From an uncultured Elusimicrobia bacterium (GTDB lineage: Bacteria; Elusimicrobiota; Elusimicrobia; FEN-1173): 64,000 nucleotides of DNA. The notes beneath the pieces are model-generated. The model was given only the letters and a program-made list of their open reading frames with translations, was not told where the DNA came from and did not search any database. How positions within the stretch are numbered: position 1 is the first letter of the stretch; every line of letters starts with the position of its first letter. The stretch covers positions 28,521 to 92,520 of the forward strand of contig CAYZXT010000006.1 in the NCBI GenBank assembly GCA_964482515.1, written 5' to 3'. Below are positions 3,168 through 44,116 of this stretch, piece after piece. The translations under genes were made by a program, and so were the position numbers.

Positions 3168-4529
<1,362 letters not shown>

Positions 4530-6284: not shown

Positions 6285-9200
6285 TTAAGCGGAGGTCAAG
6301 AAAAGGCCAAGAGCCTTCAGTCCTTCTTGCAGGCTCTCAACCAGGCGGAAAATCGGCACCAGGACCACAACGTCCTTGTAGACGCCCAATTCGACCTGGT
6401 CCGAAGCGAAAATCACCGCATTTTTGGGATCCAATTGCCCCGCCTTTTCCAAGGCCGACAACAGCCTGTCCATCCTCAAGATCGCTCCGTCCAGAAGCGA
6501 CACTTCCGCGCGGGCCGAAGCAATGAGCGAGGGTCTCTCGCCGGCCAGGATGATCCGGATGTTGCCTTGGCGCAACAGGACGTCGTAGTCGCGCATGAAT
6601 TCCTCCCGGTCCCTGCCCGCATTGAAGGCTGCGTCCGCCGACATGCCTTGCCAGAAATCCGGAGAGGCTTGGCGCGGATCGCGCACGATCAGGGTCAAGG
6701 TGTTCGCCGTATCCCCGGCCGTTCCCGCATTATTGGCGACGAAGGCCGCCAGCAGTCCCGACACGGAGGCGCGCGCCGCGCCCTTCTTCATCACATCCGC
6801 CGGAACTTCAGCGAAGACGTCTTTGCCGCCCCTCATCCGCGCGGAAACTTTCGTGAAGACGACGCGTCCGGCGTATGCGGCCAGAATGTCACTCCGGAAG
6901 GTTTCATGGCCCCGCGGCGACCAAGCATCGCCCGGCGCGTTGTCGCCCAAAGACTCCAAAGCCCGCCCCAGGACATAAGCGGCCCCCCGGTCCCCGCCCC
7001 TTGCCGATTCCCGCGCCAAACCCTTGGTCAAGGCCCCGCGCAGAGCCGCCGGGTCGGGCGTTCCGTCCACAAAAGCGTTGCTGGCCAGTCTGATGTGAAT
7101 CCGCGGCAGGCCCAGGGCGTCCACCCCGAAATTCCGCGCCGGAGCGATGCCGCGCAGCCAGACGCGGGCCCGGTCGCGGAACCCCGACTCCTTCACATGC
7201 CAAGAATCATCGACGGCCACAGGGACCGGAACAACGGAAACCTCCGAAACCGAATCTTGCCGGGCGGATAGGATCGCGCGGAACGCCGCGGACAGAAGAG
7301 CGGAGAAGACCATCGCCAGAACAATCCCGCCGGCCACGCCGCCCGCAAGAGACCCCGCAAGGAAACCCAAAGATACCGGCAGGACCTGCGCCGCGAAATA
7401 GGCCCACCGCTCGCTCACCACGCCCAAGCCGTGCAGCGCCTCGTGCCCGGGCACGCCCAGGATATAAAGGCCGGCGCGGGACAACACCTTGAAAACGGGG
7501 TTTGAATGATAGACGAAATGGGCGAGGGAAGGATTCAGGACTAGCGCGTGTGTGTTCTTTTCAAATTCCAATAAATCGACGCCGGGCTCAACGCGGACCG
7601 AGCGGAACCCGAACAGGGGCGGCGCGCGACCGTCGGGGGTTTCATAGGCCGCTCCCGAACGCGCAGCCGCCGCCAAAACCAATCGGAGAATCCCCATCAG
7701 GACCAGCCCCGCCAGGGGCCAAGCCGCCGCCGCGCCCAGAGAGCTGGCCGCAAAACCGAAGGACGCGGCCAAAAACTGGGCGGACACCAGGAACGCCGCG
7801 GCCGCCACGCCGAACAACGCCGCCGCCCACAGCCCCTGCCGCCAGGTTTCCCGGGACACGGCCCTGCGCTCGATGTCCTCAAACAGCCTGTCATAAGCAT
7901 CCGACTCTCCTTCCGCTTCGAACCAATCGCGAACTTTTTTCAACGCGGCGGAACGATCCACCAGCGTTTCCAAAAGCCTATTCAGCAATTCGCTCCTTGG
8001 TCCATGGGCCGTCGGTTCCGATTGAGCGTCCCTCTCGCGCGATGAATACGCCTTCGCGGCGTCCTCATAACCCATTATGTCCGAAACTTTCCCATCATCG
8101 CCCACGAAGTACACTTGCACATACTCCGGAACCCGACATTTCAAAATAAAGTCCAACATGGCCTTTTTGGGAAACGCAGCATTCACTTTAATCGTGCACG
8201 GGACCGTGATCCCCGTGGTCAACTCGTTTAGGACGCGATGGATTATCAACCATTCCGATAGACCTTCTAAATTTATACTAATTACGGATGAATTATCCTC
8301 GACCCGCGTTTCCTCCTTCGACAACGATCTCATAAGGCCGCGAAGAGTTCCCATCATCTCCTCTGTAGGATTGGTTGGTTCACCAAATTTTCCGGACAAC
8401 GCCCAGGCATGGTCGTATTGCTTGGACCCGCTATCAACTATCAAGTCCTTTGGATTCGGATGGTGGAGGAACAAATTGACGATCATCGCCTCGGGAAATT
8501 GGCCGTCAGAGACAAAGACTTTATGCAGGGCCCGCAACCCAAAAAGAGGAGACAAATCCTTCACCCGGCTGGCCTCCAAGTGAAGTATCCCCAGACTGGG
8601 CAAGGACCCCATGCCTTCGAGGGGTTCCTGTCTTTGTCCCACATTGACCAGCAACCCGAATACATTTTTTTCCACCGTGGCTGAAGGGCCAAACAGGTCC
8701 CTCGCCCGCGTTACTTGGCTTTCGAGAGTGGGGAAGCGATCCTCAGCGGCCGGGGCCGGCGTCGCAATGGGCCCCATATCGGCGAACTCTTCCGGGTGCG
8801 CGCGGCGATAAGCGACAGCCTCGGGATAGGCTATTGTTCTGAACGATTTAAAAAATCCGATCTTGACGGCCTCGGGTCGAGGGGAACTTAAAATGATCCT
8901 CGACAGCACGGCTTCGGAAAATTGCCCTTCTTCGATAACTATTTTTAAATTCCTTACGTTAAGGTATTGAACCATTTTCAGCATGTCGGAACCCTTTATG
9001 CTCGCTCCGACAAAAAAAGTAAATTCCCCGAAGGATGACGGGTGAATGCTGCTCTCATTGGCGGCTGCGGGCCCGACTATTGCTTTCAGGTCATTCGACA
9101 ATTCCGCCGCAATCACAGAATCATTGTATGACGGAAAGATATGATCCATGCGATACGTCTTCTTACCTTTTCCCGATCTGGAAATTTCAGCAATAAAAGC

Positions 9201-12200
9201 CTTCGGCGCAGGACTATAATCCTGATAAAAACTCCTGATATCCTTTTTACGAAATTTCCCCTCTGGAATACTCATGGTTTTCAGCCCTCGTAATCCACTG
9301 AAAACCCTCAAGTCGGAAGGGCCATCCTCCTTAATAATGATCGATTCGATGCTCGGGCACTTCCTCCAAAGGACGTCCCAGGAAACCGCATAGTCCCGGT
9401 CAAGCATTAACTCCAGGGGACCATCATCACGCAAATGAACTTGATTTTCGCCGAAGGTGTCAACGAGAATCCGCCGCTGCTCCTCGATCGTGGGGAAGGG
9501 GTCCGGCGTATCTGCAGGCTGGACAGTCCGCTGCGCGGCGGGCGGCGTTGTCCCGGGCAACGCCATGAGGGAGAACTGCTTTGGGTGCGCGCGGTAATAC
9601 GCGACAGCCTCGGAATAACTCATTGAACGAGACTCCCCCTCATCGGATGAAAAGATAAAATGAACGTTCTCGGGCACGGGGGAAGTTAAAATAAAAAAGG
9701 TCATGAAAAATTCGTCGATTTGAAATCCTTCAGACATCAGAAAGACTTCTCTCATTTCAGAAAAGCCCGTCAGTACCCTCAATTCATCGACGCCCAGCCC
9801 TTGAGAAAGGCGAATGCGTAATTGCCACATATCCTGCATAAACTCCGCTGTCACAGAACTCATCATGTTGTGTCGCCCGAGTTTTTCCCTGATTATCGCC
9901 CTGACTTCCTTGAAGCCGGACCCTGGAATGAAGTCCGCCGCCGAAAACCATTTCATGCCTCCAGACGGATTGTCTGAATAAATACGGATCCTTCCAGAGT
10001 TTTCAGCTTCGCGATAAAACCTTTCAAGTTCCACTCGATGAAACCTCCCGGCTGGAAGCTGGATATTGCGCAGACCCCTTATCCCTTCATAAAAGTTAAT
10101 ACTGAGGGTGCCGTTTTCCCCGACAATTATCGTCCTAATGCTCGGGCAATGCTTCCAAAGGGATTCACACTCCCTATAAGGAAATAAATCTCTATCATCC
10201 ACAGTTAACTCCAAATCCCCGTTCCTATCCACCTTCACTTTTTCGGGCCCGAAGATATCAATGAGCGCTTCACGCTGCTCCTCGATCGCGGGGAAGGGGT
10301 CCGGCGTATCAGCAGGCTGGACAGTCCGCTGCGCGGCGGGCGGCGTTGCCCCGGGCAACGTGACGGTGAACTCCTCCGGGTGCGCGCGGCAATAGGCGAC
10401 AGCCTTGGAATAATCCATAAAACGGGGGGTCTCCCCTTGCATTATAATCTCCTGAATCTCCTCAATCGAGACGCCCTCGGGAAAAGGAGCGCTCAGAACG
10501 ATTCGGGCCATGTCGGCATCCGTAAATTGATCATGATCCACAAATATCAGGATACTCGCTCGACGAGAGTATTCCGTCATTTTCATTAAGTCGGGAACCG
10601 TCGCAACCTTCGTAGGTTTAATCTCATACTTACGAGATACCCCCAGACGAACATAAATATCACGCGTCAAGTGGGGCGGGACGAATTCTCGGCACGCCTC
10701 TTCCATCTCGGATATTAAATTTTCGTTGCTCAATCCAGGGGTGAAGGTGCTCGCCGAATAACTTTGTCTTACTATTTCTTCATCCCACACATGAACGACA
10801 ATTCGCATGGGATCATTTTCATTCCCAAAAAAAAGGCCGACGTCGTCATCAGAAAATTTTCCCGGTGGAATAAAAATGGTTCTCAGCCCTCTTAATCCAT
10901 TGAAAATCCTCAAGTCGGAAGGGCCATCCTCCCTGATAATGATCGATTCGATGCTCGGGCACTTCTTCCAAAGGGCGTCCCAAGAAACCTCGTAGTCCCG
11001 GTCAAGCGTTAGCCCCAGGTTACCGTGGAGAAGCAAACGAACTTGATTTTCGCCGAAGGTCTCAACAAGAATCCGCCGCTGCTCCTCGATCGTGGGGAAG
11101 TGACCGGAGGCATCCAATACATTATCGGGATAAACAGAATCAACCGGCGCCTCCTTCAAAACGGGCGCCCGTTCCCTGTCGCGGCGGGCGACGGCGTAAA
11201 TGTAAGCCGCTTCCACGCGGGACTGCAGTTCCCGCGCGCTCATGATGATGTAAGGCGCTTCTTTCAGATAGGCGGCCGCCTGGGGCTCGTCCAATGTCCC
11301 GGAAACAACAACCACCTCGAACCCCCTGTCCTTGAGGAAATGGACGAACTCGCCGGCGATGAGATTGCCCCCGTTGGCCGGCAGGCCGTGAACGAGCAAC
11401 GGCGGCCGGGTCGAAGCGGTGGGCATGCCACCGCGGCGGAACCCCCGCAAGGGATTGCGCAGGAACTTGGGGAGATAGAGCGTTCCGGTCCCGGGCGGGC
11501 CGAACTCCCGGCCCGGAGTCGCACGCCGCTGCACGAAAGCGGAAGCTTCCGCGTCAAGGAGGGATGAAACCGTCGTGCTTAATTCCTTCATTTTTGAATA
11601 TCGGGACTCCTCACTCAGAACGCTGGGGACAGGACGCGCCGATACGGATTCAGAGATCTGGACATCGTTATTGTCGTCGCGAGCCTTCGATTCATGAGCT
11701 CCCTCAATTCCATCGTATCGGGAGCCGACCGTTTCCGAGGCAACCCGACCAAACAATCCCGCCAGCCGACCCATTTGCGATATCCGGATCCGCCCAAGGA
11801 ACCCCAAAAATCGGGTCAACCGAGAATCTTCGGTTGAGACCCCTTCTGCCCTGGCCGCCGACAACTTGATCCCGCCATAAACCATGGACGCCAATAAACT
11901 GAGTCCGACAATAATAACCAGCGGAAGATAATTCGGCATTCCACGCAACAGCTCGGGTTCAGGAATTCTGGGAATCATTGCCGGAAGCGCCGAAGATCCC
12001 GAATTCGCGTGAACAACAAGAAGAGCCAGGATTCCCGAAGCCAAAAGGACCCCCGCGGCCAATGCCAGCCGCCTCATCCGAAATCGCGACCCGGCCGGCG
12101 CTTTATTCGATTTCAATTTAGCTTGCGCGATGGCCAATATCTTCGCTTTCCTCGCCGTCAAATCCTTGTCTCCGAGAAATCCCAGGGCCGTCAGAATCGA

Positions 12201-15200
12201 CCGGGGCGCCTTATTGTCGGTGAGCTGCGCGATTATTTCCCGAAGGCGCTCTTCGGAGGCCAGGGGCAAGTCATCTTCCATCAAACCGAGCTCATCGCTC
12301 AAACTCTTTAATATTTCGTTGCGCTGATCCTGCAAATCCTCAACGACGTCCTCCAGCGGCTCCTCTGGAACCGCCCGTTCCTCCATCTCGCGCGGCGGGC
12401 CGGACAGGTCCACCTCCCCGATACGACCAAGGACTTTCCCAACGTCAACACTCCCCGGCCGTGGCAAAACCGATTTTTCCTTGGGAGAACGAACCGGGAC
12501 GGCACCAAGGCTTAGGAACTCACCGTCCAATTTGATCCTCTGCATGGCTTTCAGGGCAAGGTATTGCCGGTAAAGAATTTCATCCTCCTCCAGGGTCTCC
12601 GGGATACCGTTTTGAAAAATCTCATCCACAACGTCCAAATGCCGCAGGGCCAAGGCAAACGGGTTGAGGTTTACTTCCCCATACCGCTCCAACCAAGCCG
12701 ACGCGGCCGCTTCCAATTGCGTTCGCGATATTTCCTTCCTTCCGTAGGCGATCAGGGCCAGTTGGAATATTTTCTTCGGCGCCAGGGAAAACAGCCCCTT
12801 CCAGTCACCGGCAATCCCCCTCTCCAAGTCGCGCTGAAAATAGACCGACTCATGGTCATTGTCTTGCGTTATGCTTCCGGGGAAATGTTGCCGCATTGCC
12901 CTTTTGTGACGCAGATCCTCCAAATCTTGATACACATCCTCAAAGGGGTCCGCCGGGGCCTGCAACCCCGCGAGCGAAAGAAAAAAATCCGGCGCCGAAG
13001 TGGGGGTAAGCCCCGCGAAATCCCGAGTGAATAACCCATGTCCGGCTTCATGCTCCAGGGTGTTCAACCAATCTTGGCCATCGAACTGGTCCTCCCTAAA
13101 AGCGATGTCCACCTTCTGCGCTTTGTAGGTCCCAGCTGCGGACTGCCCCGCGGGCTTGAGGCTGATTGTCACCGGCCGTTGGTGGACAGGAAGGATGAAT
13201 TGGGCGATGCGGCCGATGGCCTTCACTTTGTCCAGGCCGCTTCTGAACTCCAGGGAAGCAAGCGCCTTCCGGCCGGGCAATTCTTGCCCCCTCAGCATCC
13301 TCCGCAGATAGATGGGGCCGTACACCCTCTCCACGGCCTCTTCCGCCGAAACGCCCGACGCCGCCACGAGCAGGGCCCGCTTGAATTCCCGCGGCGTGGG
13401 CCGCTCCCGAGACCGCGGCAGGGCGTTCTGTATCCAAAGGTGCGCGCGGACGATGTAAGCCATGTCCTCGTCCGACAGGGCCGGGGCCTTCGTCCCGAAT
13501 TCCGTGACGATGTCCAAAGCGTATTCCGATAAGTCATCCTTGTCGTAATCCATCTCGCGGCGGAAGATCACCCGGTTCTGCAAGGCCGTGGAAAGCCTTT
13601 CGCGGCCGCTGAAGTCGGCCCCGTTGATCGTGGCGATGAACGCAAAACCCTTCGCGTCGGTGTTATCGTCGGTCAGCACGTCGTTCAGCTTCCCTTCCAA
13701 ATAGCCGCTGGGCAATACATCCAACTCGCTGACCACTAGAACGACCCCGTTCTCCTTGGCCCAAACTATGGCCTTCTCAAGCTCGTCGAACCGCGGCGAG
13801 GCGTTGATGTGGCAAAAGCTGCGCGGGCCCGGCGCGGCCGCCCCCGCCTTGACCGCCTCATAACCGCTCGACTCCAGAACCCGCACCACGGTCACGTCCT
13901 TGCCGCGGCCGGAGGCTCCCTCCAAAATCATTCCCCGCTTTCCCGCCGCAAGCCCGTTCCGTTTCATACGATATTCCCGCATGATGAGGAAATCTCCCAC
14001 CGCCGCGGCCAACCTCATCGTGGTGCGCGATAGGGTAAGGGCCCTCGACCTATACAATTGGGCCCCCTCGTTGCGCAGATCCTCTATCCAGGCGTTTTGG
14101 AGAGCCTCCGCGTCCACCGCGAATTTCAGGCGGAGCGCGTGCCGGAGCGCGACGCGGCCCTCCGGACTCAAGCTCGGCGAGAACATTTCCCACGCCGCAA
14201 GGAGCGCTTCTTCCACGATATTGCCGGATCCGCTCAGCACCTGCGCCCGGGCGGACAGTTCCTGGAGGTCGCGCAAAGAAATTCCCTGTCCCTCCTCCCA
14301 CCCCGCCACCCGGCGAACGGTCTCAAATACCCCGAGCAGCAGGGCCCGCAAGGCCGCCGCGTTCGGCGCATCCGGCGACACGTATTCTTCGAGCCTTTGC
14401 CGGAAAAACGCCTCGTCGAATTCAGGGAAGGCGACGGTGGGGACGTGCGGGGCGAGGAAATCCTGATACTTTCTGTCCTGCAGGGTTTCCTGGTTCCCGG
14501 TGAAAACGACCTTCTTGCCCTCCATATCGATCTTGCGCCCTTCGATCCACATGTAGGGGGTTTCCCCTTCTCCCACGAACAGCCCCCCGAAGAACCGCCA
14601 AAAATCCGGCCGCGCCAGGTTCGCTTCGTCCAGGACCAGCAGCGCCGGCCCATCGTGCAAAGCCCAGCGCGTGATGTCGGCGAACGCGGAGGCCCTGCCG
14701 GTCTCATCGTCGTTCGAGTCCTGTTCCTGGGCGTCCACCCCGATCGTCACGGGCCCGAACATCCGCAGCCCCAGCGCGTCCGCCAAACCTTTTGCCGCAA
14801 AGCTTTTTCCCGTCCCGGGAGACCCTTTCAGGAACACCGCCGGGGATTTTGCCAATATTCTCCGCACCCGCCCCAAACGTTTATCCCAACTTTCCTCGAC
14901 CGGGCCGGCCTTGTCGTTGATGGAAGGAGCTTGATCAACGGACGCGTTCGCCTTTCGGAAAAGGGCGCGGTAGAAACCCTCCCGGTCATCGCCCAGGTGC
15001 GCCGCGATCAGCGCGTCCTGAATCAGCTCGAGCGCCCTCCCGGCGCCCGCGCGATCAAAACTTTCGGGCACGCCGGCTTCGTCCAACAAATCCAGGCTGA
15101 GGGTATCCGCGAATTCCCAAAAACGGTCCTTCCATGTGGCGGGAGCGACGATCTTGTTCATCGCCGCTTTCAGTTTCGGCCCATGAATGCTCCTCCCAGT

Positions 15201-18200
15201 CAGCCCCGCCTCCTTCGGCCGAAATGTCCGCCGCGCCGCCGTCCGCAGAAACGCGGCCACGTTCGGATCGTCCGCGTAATCGTCAAGATAAACGTCCTCA
15301 AAGGCCCGCATCCAATCCAGCGTGCCATCGGGGTTTCGAGCCTGGCGGCACAGGAGCCGGAGGCGTCCCAGGCTGAAATCCGCCCGAGCCGGATAGAGCC
15401 CGCGCCGCGCCGGCGGAGGGACCGTCTCGAAAGCCCTTCTCAAGGAGAGCACCTTCTCAATATCGCTTTCCGTGAGAGCTCCACTGAATTCGCGCTTCAA
15501 TTCCTCCACTATGTCCCGCACGGAAATGTCCAACACGGCGCGGTGAAGAACCGAGACGCCGGCGCCGCTCCCGATATGAGAAAGAAGGATCAAGCGTCCC
15601 GTTAAAACGTTTTCCCCTTTGCCGGCGAAGGGACGGACCTCGCCGTTCACCACGAGATAGGGATTTTCATGCAAAGCCGTTTCCAACTGGCGCAGGAGAT
15701 CCGGATTGGATTCCATCCCCGCCAAAACGACGGTTTCTCCCCGTTCCAAGGCCTCCAACACCTGCCTCTTGACCGCCCGCAAACGCCCCCCCGGCAACAG
15801 CTCGCTCGCCATCGATAGATCGTCCAGGATGGTCGCCGGCGTGACCGGATAAACAAGGGGGGGCTGGCCGTTCCGTTCGGAGACGTCCCGCATGATCCGC
15901 GCCAACAGGCCGGACGGGTCCGATCCTTCAACGAGCGACACCCGCCGGTCCCGCGCCATTTCCCACGACTCCGGATCCGGGGCCCTGGTCCGGCGGACCG
16001 CCGGCAGCATTCCACGATAACGCAACGGGACCTCCACGCCGACGCCCAATTCAATTTCCAATTCGCCGCCCATATGCAAAAGACGGTGCCACAGCGACTC
16101 CGGAATTTCCGGATCGGTTATAAGGACCCGGAGACGCCCTCCGTCCGCGCCCATCCGCTCCAGCAATCCCGCGCCCTGGGACAACGTCCCCTGGGAATCG
16201 ATGCGGGTGAACTCAAACAGCTGGTGCTGCGTTTCCCGGTTCAAGACCCACGCGCGCTCCGCCGGCCAGGCGGTCTCGCCCGCCGGCACGACCCGTTTAT
16301 TCTCCAAGGCGCGCCGCCCGTAGCCGCCCTCCGCCCAATGGACGGAAAAACCTTCCCGCGCCGCCACCCATTTTCCGTTGGAAAGGATCCCGCCGTTCAA
16401 GAGGGCCTGCCGGACCATGTGGGACAACCGGGTGTTGGGGATTCCCTGCTCATCTCGCCACACGCCCCCTTGGATCAAGAGGGGCCGCCCTTCCCTCATG
16501 GCCCGGACGAGTGCGCCCTCTTCCCAGCGCACGCTTCCGTTGGGCAGAAGCCGGTAGCGCGCGACCAGCGCATCCTTAATATCGATGTCGTCGGACTCGA
16601 AAAGTTCCGCGCGCAGGCCGTTGAAAGCCTCCGGATCGTCGACCTGGGACAAACCTTCCAGCGGATCCGCGTAATCCGCGTCCGCTTGGAATTCCCCGGT
16701 CAGGGAGCGTGAATAAAAATCAACCGAAAATTCACGCAGCTGGTCCTCCCGCACCGCCCCAACGATGCGGAGCGACGGAGAGGCCTTAACGCCCAAATAC
16801 TCCGGAGAGTCCCCGAACAGCTGATTGAATCCCGCCACGGTCTTTGGGTCGGAATTCGTGTAGTCCAGGAACAACACGCCGCCCCGCTCGATCAATTGAA
16901 GCAAGGGGCTTTTCGCCTCCCCAAACCGGCCGTTTATCACGCGCGCGGGATTGAGCAAATCATCCAAATCGGTGTCATCCCGCAGGGTCAGCCGCAAATA
17001 CGGAATGTTTCCGTTCGCGGCCACGATTTCCCTTAGCCGCACATCCAATGCCTCCACATCCCGGGGCGTATTCACGAAGGTCAACCCGCGACCTTCGTTC
17101 AATAGATCGGTCAGGCTCGGATCGGCCCACGGCGAACCCATCGTCATCGGGAAACGGCGGAATATTTTGTTCCACCCCGTGTGGACGGCAACGGCCAGAA
17201 CAAAGCCGATCACCATGGCCAGGAGGGAGTAAAGCGGTCCATCGAACCCGGACAGGAACAACCGGGGCGCGGCGAGGGCGGCGAGGTTGAATAAGACAAC
17301 GGCGAAAAGGCGGACGGCGAAATCAACGGGGGATTTATTTTCATGGCGGAAAACGAAAGACGCCTGGTGCGCGGCGTAATAAACCGCCGCCACCAGCCAG
17401 AACGACATGACTATCGCCAAAAGCAGCGGATTCGCCTCCAGCAACACAGCCTTCAAATTCCATGCCGCCATCAGGATGAGGCCAGGCGCGCGGCCCATCC
17501 AAAAGGCGCGCCAGCGCGTCAACGTCGGCTGCCCCCGCGCTTCGATTTCCTTCCGCGCCGAAGCGGCGGGAGCCAGGCCCGCTTCTTCAATCACGGAATA
17601 GCCAAGCAGCTTGTGACTGATCATAGGATTCCTCAGCCACTCCGGCGCATGCTTGACCGCATTTTCGTAATAGGCCTTCGTGCTCGACAGGATCAGCGAG
17701 CGGCTTCCCCACAGGTTTTTCCACCAAGGAACGCTCAACCTCCGCGGCGGACTGAACCTCACCGACTGAAAGGAATCAGCGCCTCCCACGGGGAATTCGG
17801 CGACCACCGACGGCGCGCCCGGTCGCGCAATCAACAAGCCGTTCTCTCCGAACCCGATACTCCACCCCCACCACGCCTTGGCTTTCTCAATCAGCGCGCG
17901 AAGATTTTTACGCCTTTCACCTGAGGGAAGTTTGTTTTCCCTCCACCGCGCCTGGCTGCCCTCAACAGTGGCGGCCAAGGCGTTCGCCTTCACGGCGAAA
18001 TCATGGGCCTGGATCCTTCGCTGGAAGGGTTCGGCCAACCGCCGAATCAGCCCCGGCGAGGTAAACCGTGCGAAGATCAGGGAGATGGGTTCTCCGGCGA
18101 AAATTTTCTCGATGGGGAGTGGATCGCGGGAGAAGATGTCCATGTAATTTTTGGCCTGATCGATGTTTTCCACCTTTGGCGTGACGACGACGTAAGACGC

Positions 18201-19853
18201 ATTCTTCCGCCGCCAAAGCGCCGTCATACCCTCGGTGTGGAACCCGCCGGTCACCAGGACGGCGGAGGTTTGCTTTTCTTCTTTCATTTTCCTGAGCAGG
18301 TTTTCGGTGAGGGCTTCATTGCGGGCCAAAGCCAGACGGCAGAAATCTTCGAACGGTTTCAGCAATTCCGCGCGTATGGCGGGAAAAGCCGGAGAGCCCG
18401 ACGACAGAGAGCGGGCCCGGTCCGCCATGTTGAGGATCAACGGGCGTCGTTCCGTATAATCGGCCCAATGCCGCGGCGTCATTTCCGTGCGGAGCAATTT
18501 CGTCAGCAGGGCCTGGTCGCGTCCCAACCCCGCCAGTTCCTTTTGCGCCGGCTCAAAAGTGAGCCCGGCTTCGACTGTTTTTTCCATCCGTTCCAACTCG
18601 TCCAACAACTTGTCCCGGTTTATGCGCTCCGCGGACTGGACGTAGGTCATATAATCGGACAACTGCGGATAGCCGGTCAGGTCGATGTTCTTTTCCCGGC
18701 AAAGATCGCGCATATACGCGTAATATTCCCCGTAGCTCCTTTGACCGGCGCGGTACTCGACGCTCGCCCGCACCAGTTCATCCAGGGACTCCCGGCTCAG
18801 TCGCGATACCAGGCGATCGATCAAATCAAGCCGCTCGCGTTCCACCTTTTTGAAATCCAGTTTTTTCTCCCACCGGATCGCCCGGGACAACAGGGCCACG
18901 TTGGGATAGGCCCCGGCATCCGCGCGGGAGGAAAGAAAATCCACGTAAGCGCCCAGCCCTGTTTTACCCGCCTGGAAAGTTTGATAGAAGCGGTCGAACT
19001 CCTTGAGCCCGGGCGAATAAATTTTTTCTTTCAGACCGCTCACGGCCTCGGCCAGACCCGAGAGGAACTCCTCCGCTTCCCTCCGGCGGTCCTGGGCCGA
19101 GAGCACCGCGCGGGTGTTGTCGGCGTAAAGGTCGCCCGTCTCCACGCCCCAGAGGAGCGGCGCGACCTCCGACACCAACCCCAAATATTCCGCACCGCCC
19201 ACGTATCCTTCCTCCAGGAAATAGTCCGCGAGCTGTTGGTTCATTTCTTTCCCGGCCTCGGGCAGGGCCTTGTATTTTTCCATCTCGAAGTAGCCCTCGG
19301 CGCCCTCCAACCCCACGAGCTTCACCCCGCGCCCATCCTTCAGTCCCTGCAGGATGCGGGCGATGTTCTTTTGCGCGTCGTAGGCGCCATGGATGTCTTG
19401 AATGTGGATGATGAGGGGCGAATCCGATTTAGCCAAATGGATTTCCCGGACGCTTCCATAGGGCAAGACCAATCGGGAAAGCCAAGCGGGAACAATCCCG
19501 TTCTTGGCCCACTTCACGTTTTCAGAGAGGTCATGGGCGGACAAGGGAGCCAGAGATGGGGCGAGGGTGGATCCGTTCAGGGTTTCGGGAAGTCCCAGCG
19601 GGATTTGGCCGGTGGGAAGCTGGGCGAGGAGTTGATAGTCCCGGGATGAAAGACTGTTCGCGCGGCCCGGGTTATTTTGCGCCGAAGAGCGGGATACGGA
19701 TCTTCGTTCCTCCCAAAAGTTCGCCTCGGCCAAGGGCGATGCGACCGTTGAATAAAATAACAAGGCGCAGAGGGCGGCGGCGAGGCTCTTTTTGCTCGGT
19801 CCTTGCGCGCTGAAAGGCCTGAAAATCGAGCGGGTTCGGCGGATTATATCCAT
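6285..19853 (-). CDS. giant multidomain membrane protein (4522 aa). It combines a signal peptide, a TIKI/TraB-like N-module, transmembrane clusters, AAA+ ATPase modules, HExxH motifs, an alpha/beta-hydrolase motif, 4 LRR-like tandem repeats and a C-terminal transmembrane region
   Basis: A single uninterrupted 13,569-nt ORF, open even through the low-GC stretch (8100-11100) where stops would be frequent by chance. It shows coding-like amino-acid composition throughout. The ATG at 19853 follows an AT-rich spacer. The N-terminus has a hydrophobic signal-like segment (LAAALCALLFYSTVASPLAEA). Confidence 0.85.
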   Translation of the reverse strand: MDIIRRTRSIFRPFSAQGPSKKSLAAALCALLFYSTVASPLAEANFWEERRSVSRSSAQNNPGRANSLSSRDYQLLAQLPTGQIPLGLPETLNGSTLAPSLAPLSAHDLSENVKWAKNGIVPAWLSRLVLPYGSVREIHLAKSDSPLIIHIQDIHGAYDAQKNIARILQGLKDGRGVKLVGLEGAEGYFEMEKYKALPEAGKEMNQQLADYFLEEGYVGGAEYLGLVSEVAPLLWGVETGDLYADNTRAVLSAQDRRREAEEFLSGLAEAVSGLKEKIYSPGLKEFDRFYQTFQAGKTGLGAYVDFLSSRADAGAYPNVALLSRAIRWEKKLDFKKVERERLDLIDRLVSRLSRESLDELVRASVEYRAGQRSYGEYYAYMRDLCREKNIDLTGYPQLSDYMTYVQSAERINRDKLLDELERMEKTVEAGLTFEPAQKELAGLGRDQALLTKLLRTEMTPRHWADYTERRPLILNMADRARSLSSGSPAFPAIRAELLKPFEDFCRLALARNEALTENLLRKMKEEKQTSAVLVTGGFHTEGMTALWRRKNASYVVVTPKVENIDQAKNYMDIFSRDPLPIEKIFAGEPISLIFARFTSPGLIRRLAEPFQRRIQAHDFAVKANALAATVEGSQARWRENKLPSGERRKNLRALIEKAKAWWGWSIGFGENGLLIARPGAPSVVAEFPVGGADSFQSVRFSPPRRLSVPWWKNLWGSRSLILSSTKAYYENAVKHAPEWLRNPMISHKLLGYSVIEEAGLAPAASARKEIEARGQPTLTRWRAFWMGRAPGLILMAAWNLKAVLLEANPLLLAIVMSFWLVAAVYYAAHQASFVFRHENKSPVDFAVRLFAVVLFNLAALAAPRLFLSGFDGPLYSLLAMVIGFVLAVAVHTGWNKIFRRFPMTMGSPWADPSLTDLLNEGRGLTFVNTPRDVEALDVRLREIVAANGNIPYLRLTLRDDTDLDDLLNPARVINGRFGEAKSPLLQLIERGGVLFLDYTNSDPKTVAGFNQLFGDSPEYLGVKASPSLRIVGAVREDQLREFSVDFYSRSLTGEFQADADYADPLEGLSQVDDPEAFNGLRAELFESDDIDIKDALVARYRLLPNGSVRWEEGALVRAMREGRPLLIQGGVWRDEQGIPNTRLSHMVRQALLNGGILSNGKWVAAREGFSVHWAEGGYGRRALENKRVVPAGETAWPAERAWVLNRETQHQLFEFTRIDSQGTLSQGAGLLERMGADGGRLRVLITDPEIPESLWHRLLHMGGELEIELGVGVEVPLRYRGMLPAVRRTRAPDPESWEMARDRRVSLVEGSDPSGLLARIMRDVSERNGQPPLVYPVTPATILDDLSMASELLPGGRLRAVKRQVLEALERGETVVLAGMESNPDLLRQLETALHENPYLVVNGEVRPFAGKGENVLTGRLILLSHIGSGAGVSVLHRAVLDISVRDIVEELKREFSGALTESDIEKVLSLRRAFETVPPPARRGLYPARADFSLGRLRLLCRQARNPDGTLDWMRAFEDVYLDDYADDPNVAAFLRTAARRTFRPKEAGLTGRSIHGPKLKAAMNKIVAPATWKDRFWEFADTLSLDLLDEAGVPESFDRAGAGRALELIQDALIAAHLGDDREGFYRALFRKANASVDQAPSINDKAGPVEESWDKRLGRVRRILAKSPAVFLKGSPGTGKSFAAKGLADALGLRMFGPVTIGVDAQEQDSNDDETGRASAFADITRWALHDGPALLVLDEANLARPDFWRFFGGLFVGEGETPYMWIEGRKIDMEGKKVVFTGNQETLQDRKYQDFLAPHVPTVAFPEFDEAFFRQRLEEYVSPDAPNAAALRALLLGVFETVRRVAGWEEGQGISLRDLQELSARAQVLSGSGNIVEEALLAAWEMFSPSLSPEGRVALRHALRLKFAVDAEALQNAWIEDLRNEGAQLYRSRALTLSRTTMRLAAAVGDFLIMREYRMKRNGLAAGKRGMILEGASGRGKDVTVVRVLESSGYEAVKAGAAAPGPRSFCHINASPRFDELEKAIVWAKENGVVLVVSELDVLPSGYLEGKLNDVLTDDNTDAKGFAFIATINGADFSGRERLSTALQNRVIFRREMDYDKDDLSEYALDIVTEFGTKAPALSDEDMAYIVRAHLWIQNALPRSRERPTPREFKRALLVAASGVSAEEAVERVYGPIYLRRMLRGQELPGRKALASLEFRSGLDKVKAIGRIAQFILPVHQRPVTISLKPAGQSAAGTYKAQKVDIAFREDQFDGQDWLNTLEHEAGHGLFTRDFAGLTPTSAPDFFLSLAGLQAPADPFEDVYQDLEDLRHKRAMRQHFPGSITQDNDHESVYFQRDLERGIAGDWKGLFSLAPKKIFQLALIAYGRKEISRTQLEAAASAWLERYGEVNLNPFALALRHLDVVDEIFQNGIPETLEEDEILYRQYLALKAMQRIKLDGEFLSLGAVPVRSPKEKSVLPRPGSVDVGKVLGRIGEVDLSGPPREMEERAVPEEPLEDVVEDLQDQRNEILKSLSDELGLMEDDLPLASEERLREIIAQLTDNKAPRSILTALGFLGDKDLTARKAKILAIAQAKLKSNKAPAGSRFRMRRLALAAGVLLASGILALLVVHANSGSSALPAMIPRIPEPELLRGMPNYLPLVIIVGLSLLASMVYGGIKLSAARAEGVSTEDSRLTRFLGFLGRIRISQMGRLAGLFGRVASETVGSRYDGIEGAHESKARDDNNDVQISESVSARPVPSVLSEESRYSKMKELSTTVSSLLDAEASAFVQRRATPGREFGPPGTGTLYLPKFLRNPLRGFRRGGMPTASTRPPLLVHGLPANGGNLIAGEFVHFLKDRGFEVVVVSGTLDEPQAAAYLKEAPYIIMSARELQSRVEAAYIYAVARRDRERAPVLKEAPVDSVYPDNVLDASGHFPTIEEQRRILVETFGENQVRLLLHGNLGLTLDRDYEVSWDALWKKCPSIESIIIREDGPSDLRIFNGLRGLRTIFIPPGKFSDDDVGLFFGNENDPMRIVVHVWDEEIVRQSYSASTFTPGLSNENLISEMEEACREFVPPHLTRDIYVRLGVSRKYEIKPTKVATVPDLMKMTEYSRRASILIFVDHDQFTDADMARIVLSAPFPEGVSIEEIQEIIMQGETPRFMDYSKAVAYCRAHPEEFTVTLPGATPPAAQRTVQPADTPDPFPAIEEQREALIDIFGPEKVKVDRNGDLELTVDDRDLFPYRECESLWKHCPSIRTIIVGENGTLSINFYEGIRGLRNIQLPAGRFHRVELERFYREAENSGRIRIYSDNPSGGMKWFSAADFIPGSGFKEVRAIIREKLGRHNMMSSVTAEFMQDMWQLRIRLSQGLGVDELRVLTGFSEMREVFLMSEGFQIDEFFMTFFILTSPVPENVHFIFSSDEGESRSMSYSEAVAYYRAHPKQFSLMALPGTTPPAAQRTVQPADTPDPFPTIEEQRRILVDTFGENQVHLRDDGPLELMLDRDYAVSWDVLWRKCPSIESIIIKEDGPSDLRVFSGLRGLKTMSIPEGKFRKKDIRSFYQDYSPAPKAFIAEISRSGKGKKTYRMDHIFPSYNDSVIAAELSNDLKAIVGPAAANESSIHPSSFGEFTFFVGASIKGSDMLKMVQYLNVRNLKIVIEEGQFSEAVLSRIILSSPRPEAVKIGFFKSFRTIAYPEAVAYRRAHPEEFADMGPIATPAPAAEDRFPTLESQVTRARDLFGPSATVEKNVFGLLVNVGQRQEPLEGMGSLPSLGILHLEASRVKDLSPLFGLRALHKVFVSDGQFPEAMIVNLFLHHPNPKDLIVDSGSKQYDHAWALSGKFGEPTNPTEEMMGTLRGLMRSLSKEETRVEDNSSVISINLEGLSEWLIIHRVLNELTTGITVPCTIKVNAAFPKKAMLDFILKCRVPEYVQVYFVGDDGKVSDIMGYEDAAKAYSSRERDAQSEPTAHGPRSELLNRLLETLVDRSAALKKVRDWFEAEGESDAYDRLFEDIERRAVSRETWRQGLWAAALFGVAAAAFLVSAQFLAASFGFAASSLGAAAAWPLAGLVLMGILRLVLAAAARSGAAYETPDGRAPPLFGFRSVRVEPGVDLLEFEKNTHALVLNPSLAHFVYHSNPVFKVLSRAGLYILGVPGHEALHGLGVVSERWAYFAAQVLPVSLGFLAGSLAGGVAGGIVLAMVFSALLSAAFRAILSARQDSVSEVSVVPVPVAVDDSWHVKESGFRDRARVWLRGIAPARNFGVDALGLPRIHIRLASNAFVDGTPDPAALRGALTKGLARESARGGDRGAAYVLGRALESLGDNAPGDAWSPRGHETFRSDILAAYAGRVVFTKVSARMRGGKDVFAEVPADVMKKGAARASVSGLLAAFVANNAGTAGDTANTLTLIVRDPRQASPDFWQGMSADAAFNAGRDREEFMRDYDVLLRQGNIRIILAGERPSLIASARAEVSLLDGAILRMDRLLSALEKAGQLDPKNAVIFASDQVELGVYKDVVVLVPIFRLVESLQEGLKALGLFLTSA
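7250..7830 (-). other. C-terminal transmembrane helix cluster of giant protein 1, containing HExxH motif 2 (VPGHEALHGLG, about 7420-7440)
   Basis: Hydrophobic runs LWAAALFGVAAAAFLVSAQFLAASFGFAASSLGAAAAWPLAGLVLMGIL and VLPVSLGFLAGSLAGGVAGGIVLAMVFSALLSAAF. HEALH was read from the reverse complement of 7421-7460. Confidence 0.55.
8650..11860 (-). repeat. four tandem intragenic repeat units of about 800 bp (about 265 aa, LRR_5/BspA-like core) inside giant gene 1
   Basis: Protein repeats share AVAY-RAHP ... PAAQRTVQPADTPDPFP-IEEQR ... W--CPSI-SIII-EDG-SDLR-F-GLRGL--I-IP-GKF. At the DNA level there are near-identical cores, e.g. 9466-9560 vs 10256-10350 (about 95% identity over about 95 bp) and 9255-9470 vs 10865-11100 (about 85%). 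The region is markedly lower in GC than its flanks. Confidence 0.8.
11340..11430 (-). other. alpha/beta-hydrolase (lipase/esterase)-like N-terminal motif
   Basis: PPLLVHGLPANGGNLIAGEFVHFLKDRGFEVVVV resembles the start of lipase/PGAP1-like alpha/beta hydrolases (hhhhHGhxGxxxxF...L...G). Confidence 0.35.
13030..13050 (-). other. HExxH motif 1 (LEHEAGHGLF), a possible zincin-type metal-binding site
   Basis: Read directly from the reverse-complement translation of 13021-13096 (DWLNTLEHEAGHGLFTRD). Confidence 0.4.
13690..13915 (-). other. second, degenerate AAA+-like module
   Basis: MILEGASGRGKDVTVV (Walker A-like GxxGxGK), VVLVVSELDVL (Walker B-like hhhhSELD), FAFIATINGA (sensor-1-like), ALQNRV. 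Confidence 0.55.
14600..14840 (-). other. AAA+ ATPase module (dynein/MoxR/midasin AAA_5-like) with canonical Walker A and B
   Basis: Walker A FLKGSPGTGKSFAAKGL (about 14800-14835), Walker B PALLVLDEANLARPDFW (about 14610-14650), then VVFTGNQ (sensor-1-like). Confidence 0.75.
17150..17500 (-). other. transmembrane helix cluster 1 of giant protein 1
   Basis: Hydrophobic runs LILMAAWNLKAVLLEANPLLLAIVMSFWLVAAVYYAA, FAVRLFAVVLFNLAALAAP and LYSLLAMVIGFVLAVAV. Confidence 0.6.
17990..19853 (-). other. shared N-terminal module of giant protein 1 (about 620 aa), putatively TIKI/TraB/GumN-like
   Basis: Motifs LIIHIQDIHGAYDAQ, LVGLEGAEG and VLVTGGFHTEGMTAL...YVVVTPKV are collinear with giant protein 2 (LVVLVQDAHEIYSAQ, LIGLEGAAG, VIVVGGFHAPAIEKL...VVTVTPKV). 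Confidence 0.55.
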
Positions 19854-31641: not shown

Positions 31642-32013
31642 CTAGAACCTCGCTAGGATGAATTCGTGGAATTCTCCCATCCCATTCACAGCTTTCATTG
31701 CCTCCCGTTTATCGGCCTCTTCCCCCGGATAGCGGAATCGAACCGAATACTGATTAAGGAAATTTAAAACATCTTTTATCAATGCGAATGAACCATCAAC
31801 CTTTTCAGCTAAAACCTGCAAATCCATCAGATCATGCGTCTTTGGAAAACGCACGTTCTTCGAGGTGAGATAAGCTTTCAGATATTTTTCCGCGGATTGC
31901 TGGCAATGGAAGCAAACGACATCGTGAAGTTGTTTTTTGTTCTTGAGATATTGAACTGCCCGGTAATCCTGGTCGGCTTTCTCCAACCATTCCTTAACGA
32001 TCTTACCGTTCAT
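31642..32013 (-). CDS. HEPN domain protein (toxin component of a HEPN/MNT pair)
   Basis: Rx4-6H-like motif region (HDLMDL, RFRYPGEE). Small size. The low-GC gene overlaps the upstream MNT gene by 11 nt. Confidence 0.68.
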   Translation of the reverse strand: MNGKIVKEWLEKADQDYRAVQYLKNKKQLHDVVCFHCQQSAEKYLKAYLTSKNVRFPKTHDLMDLQVLAEKVDGSFALIKDVLNFLNQYSVRFRYPGEEADKREAMKAVNGMGEFHEFILARF

Positions 32014-32335
32014 AAAGGATATGGCCCTTCTCCATTATATCCTGAAGGAAGTAATCACCGTGTTTGATTCGCTCTTCAACCTCATCGGAATGACGGACGA
32101 TGATGTCCACGGGGAAAGGCCGGGGATCAAGCGCCTTAGAAGCCGCCAAGTAAGTCTGCTGGCGTTTCTCTTTGCTCTTCTCATCACAAATCAGCAGAAA
32201 ATCCACGTCGCTATCGGGCGTGGGCTTCCCATAGGCGTAGGAACCGAATAGCACGATCCGCTTAGGATGTACCGCCTCGGCCATCTTCTTGGCGGCCTGC
32301 TTTATTTTCTGACGAGTGATTGAATTATGTTTCAT
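32003..32335 (-). CDS. minimal nucleotidyltransferase (MNT) domain protein (antitoxin-like partner of HEPN)
   Basis: GSYAYGKPTPDSDVDFLLI is the GS-x9-13-DxD polymerase-beta-type nucleotidyltransferase motif. Confidence 0.75.
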   Translation of the reverse strand: MKHNSITRQKIKQAAKKMAEAVHPKRIVLFGSYAYGKPTPDSDVDFLLICDEKSKEKRQQTYLAASKALDPRPFPVDIIVRHSDEVEERIKHGDYFLQDIMEKGHILYER

Positions 32336-43907: not shown

Positions 43908-44116
43908 ATTAACATTTTCGACACCTTATCGCTAGGGCTCGACGCCAGTCGTGACCCCGGCATGCAATCTTATCGATGACGAAGCGGATTAATTTACATT
44001 ATTGTTACAATCACTTAACGCCCCGTTAAGACGGTCCCGCTACAATGACGGCTCATCCGCAACCTATATAACCTTCTCAACCATTGCACATCCAACTCAG
44101 CAAGGGGAATGAACCA

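What the first reader, a model, noticed from the sequence alone, without database searches (positions are those of the whole stretch)
8650..11860. Low-GC block of four about 800-bp tandem repeats with near-identical cores inside the giant gene
- The segment encoding the four LRR-like repeats is distinctly AT-richer than the rest of the gene and window.
- It contains near-exact DNA repeats: 9466-9560 vs 10256-10350 at about 95% identity, and 9255-9470 vs 10865-11100 at about 85%.
- Those near-identical cores encode PAAQRTVQPADTPDPFP twice verbatim.
- Shadow ORFs on the opposite strand repeat as well (NLIFAEG.N.NPPLLLDRGE at 9435 and 11025).

This pattern suggests recent duplication or gene conversion, and possibly repeat-number variation (phase or antigenic variation of a surface-exposed region). 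It is also an assembly-risk zone.
Basis: seen in the sequence. Interest (0 to 1): 0.65.

Follow-up and report, generated by a model that had tools for sequence, protein, structure and literature searches.

The report
Four diverged LRR modules, patchily homogenised
Inside a 4,522-residue membrane protein of an uncultured Elusimicrobiota-like bacterium lie four old, AT-rich tandem copies of a ~265-residue leucine-rich-repeat module, and two short stretches were recently copied between them; this is real but fairly ordinary for giant repeat proteins, and nothing shows it to be a surface antigen switch.

Summary
The repeats, the near-identical cores and the low GC are all real, but the block is mis-placed. 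The four units lie at 7941-11099 on the minus strand, not 8650-11860. The stretch 11100-11860 is not a unit and is not AT-rich.

Each unit is about 265 aa. It has two small beta/alpha subdomains, the first with a leucine-rich-repeat (LRR) fold, followed by a disordered Pro/Ala/Thr linker.

The units are old as wholes:
- Protein identity between units is 19-44%.
- Synonymous divergence (dS) is saturated over the central ~150 codons.

Two short tracts are young:
- R1/R3 N-core: 272 nt, 84% identity, dS 0.18.
- R1/R2 and R2/R3 junction linkers: 88 nt, 97% identity, dS 0.15.

This fits patchy gene conversion, not recent whole-unit duplication.

Block GC is 0.50, against 0.60 for the window. GC3 is 0.55-0.60, against 0.74 in the rest of the gene and 0.82-0.89 in housekeeping genes. 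The tetranucleotide signature is also atypical.

No relative of the block was found in any collection searched, so copy-number variation is untestable. The longest exact repeat is 37 nt, so assembly risk is low. Hydropathy puts the block on the same side of the membrane as the AAA+ ATPase domains, probably the cytoplasm, which argues against antigenic variation.

The parts
6285..19853 (-). Giant ORF of 4522 aa. It has an N-terminal signal or anchor, a conserved head domain, clusters of transmembrane segments, two P-loop (AAA_5-type) modules, two HExxH motifs, the four-unit repeat block and a C-terminal region.
   Evidence: ORF list and translation. An identical 4522-aa protein is on record as an NCBI singleton on a 116,168-bp contig. 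Pfam finds only AAA_5.
10296..11099 (-). Repeat unit R1 (aa 2919-3186, 268 aa).
   Evidence: The AlphaFold2 model has mean pLDDT 81.8, with two beta/alpha subdomains (residues 1-118 and 120-245) and a disordered tail at 247-268.
9498..10295 (-). Repeat unit R2 (aa 3187-3452, 266 aa).
   Evidence: It is 36% identical to R1 and 30% identical to R3.
8736..9497 (-). Repeat unit R3 (aa 3453-3706, 254 aa).
   Evidence: It is 44% identical to R1 overall, with 75-97% nucleotide identity over the first ~90 codons.
7941..8735 (-). Repeat unit R4 (aa 3707-3971). It is the most diverged unit (19-21% identity) and the most canonical LRR.
   Evidence: A profile of the LRR plus C-cap modules of the distant giant protein P0002 matches aa 3756-3810 (i-E 9e-10). 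The N-half model has pLDDT 83.8 and pTM 0.77. Its best PDB fold matches are ANP32A, Nischarin, Roco and InlA LRR domains.
9227..9498 (.). Conversion tract A, copy in R3 (N-core). Its partner is 10829-11100.
   Evidence: 272 nt at 84% identity. dS 0.18 and dN 0.16, against dS 1.5 in the middle of the same unit pair. p = 3e-9.
10829..11100 (.). Conversion tract A, copy in R1 (N-core).
9475..9562 (.). Conversion tract B, copy at the R2/R3 junction. It encodes the linker PPAAQRTVQPADTPDP plus FPTIEEQR.
   Evidence: 88 nt at 97% identity, with a longest exact run of 37 nt. dS is 0.15 over the last ~50 alignment columns.
10273..10360 (.). Conversion tract B, copy at the R1/R2 junction.
7950..11050 (.). 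AT-rich block that coincides with the four units. GC is about 0.50. GC3 is 0.45-0.6, with peaks of about 0.7 at the linkers.
   Evidence: The tetranucleotide signature is atypical.
11868..12068 (-). Predicted transmembrane hairpin upstream of the block (aa 2596-2614 and 2644-2662).
   Evidence: Kyte-Doolittle scan and K/R flank counts. This is a crude prediction.
7662..7826 (-). Predicted transmembrane hairpin downstream of the block (aa 4010-4028 and 4046-4064).
17904..19736 (-). Conserved head domain (aa ~40-650). It is the only part of the giant protein shared with relatives.

Best explanation
The block is an old internal amplification of one ~265-residue module inside a giant multi-pass membrane protein.

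MODULE ANATOMY
- An N-terminal cap helix (FPTIEEQ...).
- A short LRR-type beta/alpha solenoid, closed by a cap of the type 'F..x(H/N)PN...(I/V)V'.
- A second small beta/alpha subdomain.
- A disordered Pro/Ala/Thr-rich linker.

LIKELY ROLE (inferred)
The four modules form beads on a string, most likely a protein-binding scaffold. They sit between two transmembrane hairpins on the same side of the membrane as the two P-loop ATPase modules, so probably in the cytoplasm.

HISTORY
- The units diverged long ago.
- Two short non-reciprocal recombination events (gene conversion) later overwrote parts of them. About 270 nt of the N-core was copied between R1 and R3. About 90 nt of the linker and junction was copied between the R1/R2 and R2/R3 boundaries.
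- The low GC, low GC3 and atypical oligonucleotide signature are most simply read as a foreign or cassette origin from a lower-GC lineage. The only other protein found with this kind of capped LRR module sits behind the same head domain in a 39%-GC genome. A locally different mutation or selection regime is not excluded.

SHOWN: the repeats, their boundaries, the composition, the LRR fold of the N-half, the mosaic of dS values, and the absence of relatives.
INFERRED: the binding function, the topology and the foreign origin.
For: - Four and only four units.
- Structure models have pLDDT 82-84.
- LRR identity of the N-half. 48 non-self hits in 1.84 billion representatives were listed, and nearly all matched mainly profile positions ~44-84. 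Four of them were checked: P0003 (read, scanned) and P0006 and P0008 (scanned) are LRR_4/LRR_8 proteins, P0003 and P0008 with Roc-COR domains, and P0004 (read) is a LRR array followed by a P-loop GTPase domain like that of P0003. P0005 carried no LRR family and matched a different part of the profile.
- PDB sequence hits are to InlB and Roco LRRs at E 1e-3 to 3e-2. Foldseek top hits are ANP32A, Nischarin, Roco and InlA LRRs with probability 0.9-0.99.
- Module-type homology with the 6362-aa protein P0002, which shares the head domain. The head matches at 25% identity over 440 aa. The cap profile hits R4 at i-E 9e-10.
- Mosaic divergence. Same-codon use at identical residues is 0.89-0.90 in the cores, against 0.5-0.67 elsewhere and 0.365 expected. 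NG86 dS is 0.15-0.18, against above 1 elsewhere. Fisher p is about 1e-9.
- Composition. The P0002 locus has 39% GC, with no dip in its LRR region.
- Topology.
Against: - Foldseek E-values for the N-half are only 0.03-0.1, and the whole-unit model has no significant PDB match.
- No Pfam LRR model reaches E 0.1 on the protein itself.
- The second subdomain has no assignable fold. Evidence for a half-unit duplication is weak (hhalign probability 12%).
- The topology rests on a hydropathy window and K/R counts only. Published work on related giant proteins warns that such predictions are unreliable (bioRxiv 10.1101/2023.11.21.568195).
- Foreign origin is inferred from composition alone. Similarity to the P0002 modules is so low that any transfer would be old, and internal repeats themselves distort oligonucleotide statistics.
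- dN/dS of about 0.9 in the cores rests on 9 synonymous and 28 non-synonymous differences.
Confidence: 0.6

Rival explanations
1. Contingency locus. The near-identical cores drive frequent unequal recombination, so the number of modules, and hence a surface-exposed binding or antigenic region, varies within populations.
For: - Recombination between the cores would be in frame, removing 798 nt (266 codons) or 1602 nt (534 codons).
- A distant family member shows LRR-number differences between two nearly identical records. P0002 and P0062 differ only by ten 22-aa LRRs.
- Tails of the head-domain family are hypervariable.
Against: - The longest exact identity is 37 nt, and the 272-nt tract is only 84% identical. 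These are poor substrates for frequent RecA-dependent exchange.
- There are no simple-sequence repeats and no inverted repeats.
- The block is predicted to lie on the ATPase side of the membrane.
- No second copy of the locus exists in any collection searched, so there is no positive evidence of variation.
- The P0002/P0062 difference may be short-read collapse, since P0002 comes from a MEGAHIT k141 contig.
Confidence: 0.1
2. Recent tandem duplication of whole units, for example R1R2 giving R1R2R3R4, with the cores being what is left of it and the rest having diverged fast.
For: - The R1/R3 spacing of 1602 nt equals two units.
- dN/dS is close to 1 in the cores.
Against: - Within the same R1/R3 pair, dS jumps from 0.18 in the first 90 columns to 1.5 in the middle. 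Synonymous sites cannot diverge tenfold faster in adjacent codons after one duplication.
- R2 and R4 show no corresponding similarity (20% protein identity).
- The linker tract joins a different pair of positions than the N-core tract.
Confidence: 0.07
3. Assembly artefact. The low-GC block is a chimeric insertion from another organism's reads, or a collapsed or expanded repeat.
For: - The source is a metagenome-type contig with a single record.
- The block is compositionally atypical.
Against: - One reading frame stays open for 13.5 kb across both GC boundaries.
- GC3 inside the block oscillates with the unit period, and the GC-rich linkers resemble the host composition.
- The flanking transmembrane hairpins give a coherent architecture.
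- The longest exact repeat is 37 nt, below the k-mer and read lengths at which assemblers confuse copies.
Confidence: 0.04
4. Diversity-generating retroelement or other targeted mutagenesis acting on one copy of the near-identical pair, as a template and variable repeat pair.
For: All three differences in the 88-nt pair are adenines in the 9475-9562 copy on the coding strand.
Against: - There are only three differences, and twelve other adenines are unchanged.
- The 272-nt pair shows no adenine bias (13 of 43 differences).
- Both copies are in-frame coding linkers, not a non-coding template.
- No reverse-transcriptase gene was seen in the ORFs that were scanned with Pfam. Only about a dozen of the window's ORFs were scanned, so this is weak.
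Confidence: 0.01

Closest known systems
Internalin-type and Roco-type bacterial LRR domains (Pfam LRR_4 / LRR_8; PDB InlA, InlB, C. tepidum Roco LRR, ANP32A LRR)
   Same: - About 22-residue beta-strand/turn repeats of the form L..L..L.L....I.DL..L..L.
- The profile of the units aligns to them at positions 44-84.
- The N-half model superposes on them at 2-3 A over 60-90 residues.
   Different: - Only about two recognisable LRRs per subdomain.
- No Pfam LRR model reaches E 0.1.
- Each short solenoid is individually capped and joined to a second unassigned subdomain and a disordered linker, so the repeating unit is 265 aa rather than 22 aa.
Capped LRR cassettes of the 6362/6582-aa giant protein P0002/P0062 (39%-GC genome; same head domain, plus PPDK_N / PEP-utilizers)
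   Same: - The same N-terminal head domain.
- Modules begin with (L/F)(S/P)xxEEQ helices and end with 'IYELF..N(P/E)NRENL.V' caps followed by linkers.
- The cap profile hits R4 at i-E 9e-10.
   Different: - The P0002 modules hold variable numbers of near-identical 22-aa LRRs and no second subdomain.
- Overall similarity is too low for BLAST outside a 66-aa stretch.
- There is no GC anomaly in P0002.
Giant multi-pass, multi-domain proteins of Omnitrophota ('Archaeovorins' and related; bioRxiv 10.1101/2023.11.21.568195 and 10.64898/2026.06.07.730766)
   Same: - Very long ORF with many transmembrane helices.
- AAA_5 modules, mostly unannotated sequence, and internal domain repeats whose DNA similarity has decayed.
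- Relatives of the head domain occur in Omnitrophota and carry PPDK/PEP-utilizer domains.
   Different: - This protein has 4.5 kaa, against at least 30 kaa for the Archaeovorins.
- The closest head-domain relatives are Elusimicrobiota MAGs, at no more than 49% identity.
- None of the characteristic HEAT, TPR, SecA_DEAD or glycosyltransferase domains was detected.
- Homology to Archaeovorins proper was not tested.
Intragenic gene conversion among tandem modules of bacterial repeat proteins (general phenomenon; own knowledge)
   Same: Short tracts of near-identity, including at synonymous sites, embedded in otherwise saturated repeat units. Different tracts link different unit pairs.
   Different: Only two small and fairly old tracts (84% and 97%). 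There is no array-wide homogenisation.

Membership tests
Leucine-rich repeat (LRR) domains | Consecutive 20-30-residue repeats with the LxxLxLxxNxL-type hydrophobic pattern | tested here: met
   Profile positions 44-84 of the unit align repeatedly to the LRRs of Roco and internalin-type proteins. Nearly all of the 48 non-self hits in the exhaustive search matched mainly there, and four of them were checked by eye or by Pfam as LRR proteins. Only about two repeats per subdomain are recognisable.
Leucine-rich repeat (LRR) domains | Curved beta-strand/helix solenoid fold | tested here: inconclusive
Leucine-rich repeat (LRR) domains | Match to a curated LRR family model above threshold | tested here: not met
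   Pfam and NCBIfam scans of the whole protein list no LRR family at E <= 0.1.
Phase-variable / contingency loci | Hypermutable element: a simple-sequence tract, an invertible segment with inverted repeats, or long highly identical repeats | tested here: not met
   TRF finds nothing in the block. There are no meaningful inverted repeats. The longest exact direct repeat is 37 nt.
Phase-variable / contingency loci | Observed variation in copy number or state between cells, strains or assemblies | not testable with these tools
   The protein is a singleton. No relative of the block was found in 1.84 billion representatives, GTDB species genomes or JGI metagenome contigs.
Surface-exposed antigen / adhesin | Extracytoplasmic location of the variable region | tested here: inconclusive
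   Hydropathy plus the positive-inside rule places aa 2663-4009 between two transmembrane hairpins on the same side as the AAA_5 modules. No dedicated topology predictor was available.
Diversity-generating retroelement target | Template/variable repeat pair differing at adenines, plus a reverse transcriptase nearby | tested here: not met
   The 272-nt pair has 13 of 43 differences at A. The 88-nt pair has only 3 differences. No RT was seen in the ORFs scanned with Pfam, which were only about a dozen.
Head-domain giant-protein family of Elusimicrobiota/Omnitrophota (unnamed) | N-terminal ~550-aa domain with invariant H..QD.H, LEGA.G and GGFH motifs | tested here: met
   Up to 49% identity to Elusimicrobiota MAG proteins. 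At least 558 confirmed loci were found, many heading ORFs above 3000 aa.

The most novel reading that the evidence does not exclude
The AT-rich four-module block is a horizontally acquired LRR cassette array. On this reading, giant proteins that share the conserved Elusimicrobiota/Omnitrophota head domain swap non-homologous tail modules between lineages, in the way polymorphic or modular surface and toxin systems do. Intragenic conversion followed by dN/dS of about 1 would then diversify the binding faces of the modules.
Probability: 0.15. Interest if true: 0.55.

Novelty: new variant of a known kind. Interest (0 to 1): 0.3.

Why it matters
- It gives a worked example of how the internal repeats of giant 'dark-matter' proteins of uncultured bacteria evolve: old module amplification, later short conversion tracts, and a compositional footprint that may mark module import.
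- It defines a 265-aa composite LRR module that no curated family model recognises.
- It corrects the tempting reading of 'surface antigen with variable copy number' for a block that is probably intracellular and only weakly recombinogenic.
- The larger lead is outside the finding. The head domain marks a large multi-copy family of big to giant proteins with unrelated tails in Elusimicrobiota and Omnitrophota.

Tried and rejected
- A word-index homology search with the 1053-aa block found nothing, not even the protein itself, so that negative is weak. The whole-protein search timed out.
- An exact look-up of the giant protein on contigs found no record.
- Genome and metagenome scans with the block, and with the alignment of units, found no relatives.
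- The unit profile and the P0002 cap profile found nothing in 81 head-family loci totalling 1.18 Mb.
- The head-domain profile against PDB sequences gave nothing.
- Pfam on the remaining segments of the giant protein and on the paralogue gave only AAA_5.
- Internal half-unit duplication gave hhalign probability 12%, which is not convincing.
- The DGR reading was rejected on the substitution spectrum.
- The invertible-segment reading was rejected.
- Rfam found nothing in the window. The tRNA scan found nothing in or near the block, only one tRNA-His at 40065-40137.

Full report
SETTING

The finding lies inside one very long open reading frame, 6285-19853 on the minus strand, encoding 4522 aa. 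An identical 4522-aa protein is on record as an unnamed NCBI singleton on a 116,168-bp contig.

Pfam and NCBIfam recognise only a dynein-related P-loop module, AAA_5, near aa 1673. By eye and regex there is a second Walker A at aa 1979 and two HExxH motifs at aa 2268 and 4137.

Neighbouring genes are ordinary housekeeping genes: enolase, phosphoglucomutase, FAD-linked oxidase, ComEC and IlvD.

The N-terminal ~550 residues are up to 49% identical to proteins of Elusimicrobiota MAGs and about 30% identical to Omnitrophota ones. The organism is therefore most likely an Elusimicrobiota-like bacterium of about 60% GC. The source genome itself is not among the GTDB species representatives.

THE OBSERVATION

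Anchoring on the motif FP[TA][IL]E[ES]Q gives four tandem units:
- R1: aa 2919-3186, nt 10296-11099.
- R2: aa 3187-3452, nt 9498-10295.
- R3: aa 3453-3706, nt 8736-9497.
- R4: aa 3707-3971, nt 7941-8735.

A profile of the four finds exactly these four domains in the protein, with every filter off, and nothing else in the six-frame translation of the window.

It omits most of R4. It also includes 11100-11860, which is neither a unit nor AT-rich (GC over 11001-11750 is about 0.62).

Whole-unit protein identities are:
- R1/R3: 44%.
- R1/R2: 36%.
- R2/R3: 30%.
- R4 to the others: 19-21%.

One is 9227-9498 vs 10829-11100, 272 nt at 84%. The other is 9475-9562 vs 10273-10360, 88 nt at 97%. PAAQRTVQPADTPDPFP occurs twice verbatim. 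The repeated opposite-strand peptides exist too, but they are only the reverse reading of the same repeat.

COMPOSITION

- GC is 0.50-0.515 over 8001-11000, against 0.604 for the window. This is the longest low-GC stretch in the 64 kb.
- The drop is mainly at third codon positions. GC3 is 0.55-0.60 in R1-R4, 0.74 upstream and 0.76 downstream in the same gene, and 0.82-0.89 in six housekeeping genes.
- Within the block, GC3 oscillates with the unit period: 0.45-0.5 in the folded parts and about 0.7 at the Pro/Ala-rich linkers.
- After normalising for base composition, the tetranucleotide profile of 8001-11000 correlates with the window at 0.78. The mean for 3-kb windows is 0.906 with SD 0.037. 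Only the stretch around 32-35 kb is as atypical.

The compositional claim is confirmed.

WHAT THE UNIT IS

AlphaFold2 on R1, using the other three units as its alignment, gives a confident model with mean pLDDT 81.8. It has:
- two beta/alpha subdomains, at residues 1-118 and 120-245;
- a disordered tail at 247-268, which is the Pro/Ala/Thr linker.

An exhaustive profile search of 1.84 billion representative proteins found only the protein itself at high score. The 48 other hits nearly all match mainly profile positions ~44-84. Of the four checked, P0003 (read, scanned) and P0006 and P0008 (scanned) are LRR_4/LRR_8 proteins, P0003 and P0008 with Roc-COR domains. P0004, read, is an LRR array followed by a P-loop GTPase domain like that of P0003. 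P0005 carried no LRR family and matched a different part of the profile.

The same profile against PDB sequences gives weak hits at E 1e-3 to 3e-2. Nearly all are internalin B, internalin A, the Chlorobium Roco LRR and designed LRR proteins.

A separate model of the R4 N-half has pLDDT 83.8 and pTM 0.77. Its best PDB fold matches are almost all LRR domains: ANP32A, Nischarin, Roco, Leptospira LRR and InlA. Probabilities are 0.9-0.99 and rmsd is 2-3 A over 60-90 residues, though E-values are only 0.03-0.1.

The whole two-subdomain model has no significant match. No curated LRR model reaches E 0.1 on the protein. So 'LRR-like' is right for the first subdomain, and the second subdomain is unassigned. 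Evidence that it is a diverged copy of the first is weak (hhalign probability 12%).

A RELATIVE WITH THE SAME KIND OF MODULE

The best non-self hit, P0002, is a 6362-aa protein from a 39%-GC genome.
- It shares the head domain of our protein, at 25% identity over 440 aa.
- It carries at least ten modules that begin with 'LSFEEQV...' helices, contain LRRs, and end with 'IYELFV.N(P/E)NRENL.V' caps and linkers.
- A profile of those LRR-plus-cap segments matches R4 at aa 3756-3810 with i-E 9e-10, and R1 and R3 weakly at the equivalent place.

The unit is thus a strongly diverged version of a capped LRR cassette seen in one other member of the head-domain family. It is rare in that family. Neither the unit profile nor the cap profile hits anything in 81 head-family loci totalling 1.18 Mb. 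Beyond aa ~700, our protein has no detectable similarity to any of them.

HOW OLD ARE THE REPEATS?

On a codon alignment, nucleotide identity is a mosaic:
- R1/R3: 0.75-0.97 over the first ~90 columns.
- R1/R3 in the middle: 0.26-0.5, which is the level of unrelated sequence.
- R1/R2: 0.8-0.98 over the last ~50 columns.

At identical residues the same codon is used in 89-90% of cases in the two cores. The figure is 50-67% elsewhere and 36.5% expected from the block's codon usage.

Nei-Gojobori estimates:
- R1/R3 N-core: dS 0.18, dN 0.16.
- R1/R2 linker region: dS 0.15, dN 0.16.
- Every other segment of R1, R2 and R3 outside their shared C-terminal and linker columns: dS 1.1-3.1, which is saturated. 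R4 was not included in this calculation.

The contrast at synonymous sites is highly significant, with Fisher p = 3e-9 and 1e-9.

Purifying selection on the protein cannot lower dS tenfold in adjacent codons. One whole-unit duplication cannot give such a jump within a single unit pair either. The two tracts link different positions, R1 with R3 and junction R1/R2 with junction R2/R3, and they have different ages (84% vs 97%). The simplest reading is an old four-unit array on which two short gene-conversion events were superimposed. dN/dS near 1 in the tracts suggests relaxed or diversifying selection since then, but the counts are small.

IS IT A VARIATION DEVICE?

No positive evidence was found.
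- There are no simple-sequence repeats and no meaningful inverted repeats.
- There is no adenine-specific mismatch pattern of the DGR kind in the 272-nt pair. The 88-nt pair has only three differences, all at A, which is too few to interpret.
- The longest exact repeat is 37 nt. That is a poor substrate for frequent homologous exchange, and too short to confuse assemblers at usual k-mer or read lengths.
- Exchanges between the cores would delete 798 or 1602 nt in frame. That changes length; it does not switch the gene on or off.
- Variation between genomes cannot be tested, because no other copy of the block exists in any collection searched.

One precedent is worth recording. P0002 and its 90%-cluster partner P0062 are identical except for ten extra 22-aa LRRs. 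P0002 comes from a MEGAHIT short-read contig, so this could equally be assembly collapse.

WHERE IN THE CELL?

A Kyte-Doolittle scan with K/R counts gives these features:
- a signal-like segment at aa 24-42;
- three strong transmembrane segments at aa 810-890;
- a hairpin at aa 2596-2614 and 2644-2662;
- a hairpin at aa 4010-4028 and 4046-4064;
- another pair at aa 4157-4195.

Hairpins do not change sides, and their flanks obey the positive-inside rule. The block at aa 2919-3971 is therefore predicted to lie on the same side as the P-loop ATPase modules, presumably the cytoplasm. This is a crude prediction. The literature on related giant proteins warns that topology predictions for them disagree between methods (bioRxiv 10.1101/2023.11.21.568195). 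Even so, it weighs against a surface-antigen reading.

WHY AT-RICH?

This is not settled. Three observations fit import of the cassette array from a lower-GC lineage, followed by partial amelioration:
- the GC3 deficit and the atypical oligonucleotide signature;
- the fact that the only other carrier of this cassette type is a 39%-GC genome with no internal GC anomaly;
- the complete non-homology of tails among head-family members.

Against this, similarity to the P0002 modules is very low, so any transfer would be old. Local mutation or selection regimes cannot be excluded. Assembly chimerism is unlikely, because one frame stays open for 13.5 kb across both boundaries and the architecture is coherent.

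COMPARISON WITH WHAT IS KNOWN

Giant, multi-pass, mostly unannotated proteins with AAA_5 and PPDK domains, and with internal repeats whose nucleotide similarity has decayed, are described for Omnitrophota (bioRxiv 10.1101/2023.11.21.568195; 10.64898/2026.06.07.730766). The present case resembles them in style and is linked to Omnitrophota proteins through the head domain. It is much smaller, sits in an Elusimicrobiota-like genome, and lacks their hallmark domains.

The repeat unit is a new composite variant of an LRR module, not a new kind of element.

VERDICT

Gene conversion is supported. Whole-unit recent duplication, phase or antigenic variation, and a serious assembly risk are not. Interest is modest at 0.3. 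The more interesting lead is the head-domain family itself.

Noticed in passing
window 17904-19736 (-), and loci L001-L081: The N-terminal ~550-aa 'head' of the giant protein has invariant H..QD.H, LEGA.G and GGFH motifs and no Pfam or PDB match. It defines a large multi-copy family in Elusimicrobiota and Omnitrophota. At least 558 confirmed loci occur in GTDB species genomes, with several paralogues per genome. Many head ORFs exceed 3000-4000 aa and have mutually non-homologous tails.
   Followed up: partly
window 44084-49825 (+): A second member of the head-domain family lies in the same window. It has 1913 aa, its head is 35% identical to the giant's over aa 22-598, it has no Pfam match, and GC3 dips in its tail.
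   Followed up: partly
window 31642-32335 (-): Two small adjacent ORFs resemble a HEPN-like protein (123 aa) and a minimal nucleotidyltransferase (110 aa, GS..YG...D.D). They look like a toxin-antitoxin pair. They sit in a GC 0.47 islet with an atypical tetranucleotide signature. They were not scanned against any family library.
   Followed up: no
P0002 (locus L082 3001-22089) vs P0062: Two records of a 6.4-6.6-kaa head-family protein from a 39%-GC genome are identical except for ten extra 22-aa LRRs in two modules. This is either true LRR-number variation or short-read collapse, since P0002 comes from a MEGAHIT k141 contig.
   Followed up: partly
locus L003 (JGI 3300056625, contig Ga0558121_00751): Three head-domain paralogues head three consecutive large genes of 1872 aa, 807 aa and more than 1900 aa on one strand. 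A PPDK_N/PEP-utilizers gene lies upstream. This suggests tandem arrays of these genes in some genomes.
   Followed up: no
window 9475-9562 vs 10273-10360: All three differences between the 88-nt near-identical linker copies are adenines in the 9475-9562 copy on the coding strand. This is too few to interpret, and the 272-nt pair shows no such bias.
   Followed up: yes
window 13044-13058 and 7437-7451 (-): There are two HExxH motifs: HEAGH at aa 2268 and HEALH at aa 4137. The second lies between predicted transmembrane segments. No metalloprotease family matched, so they may be chance.
   Followed up: no
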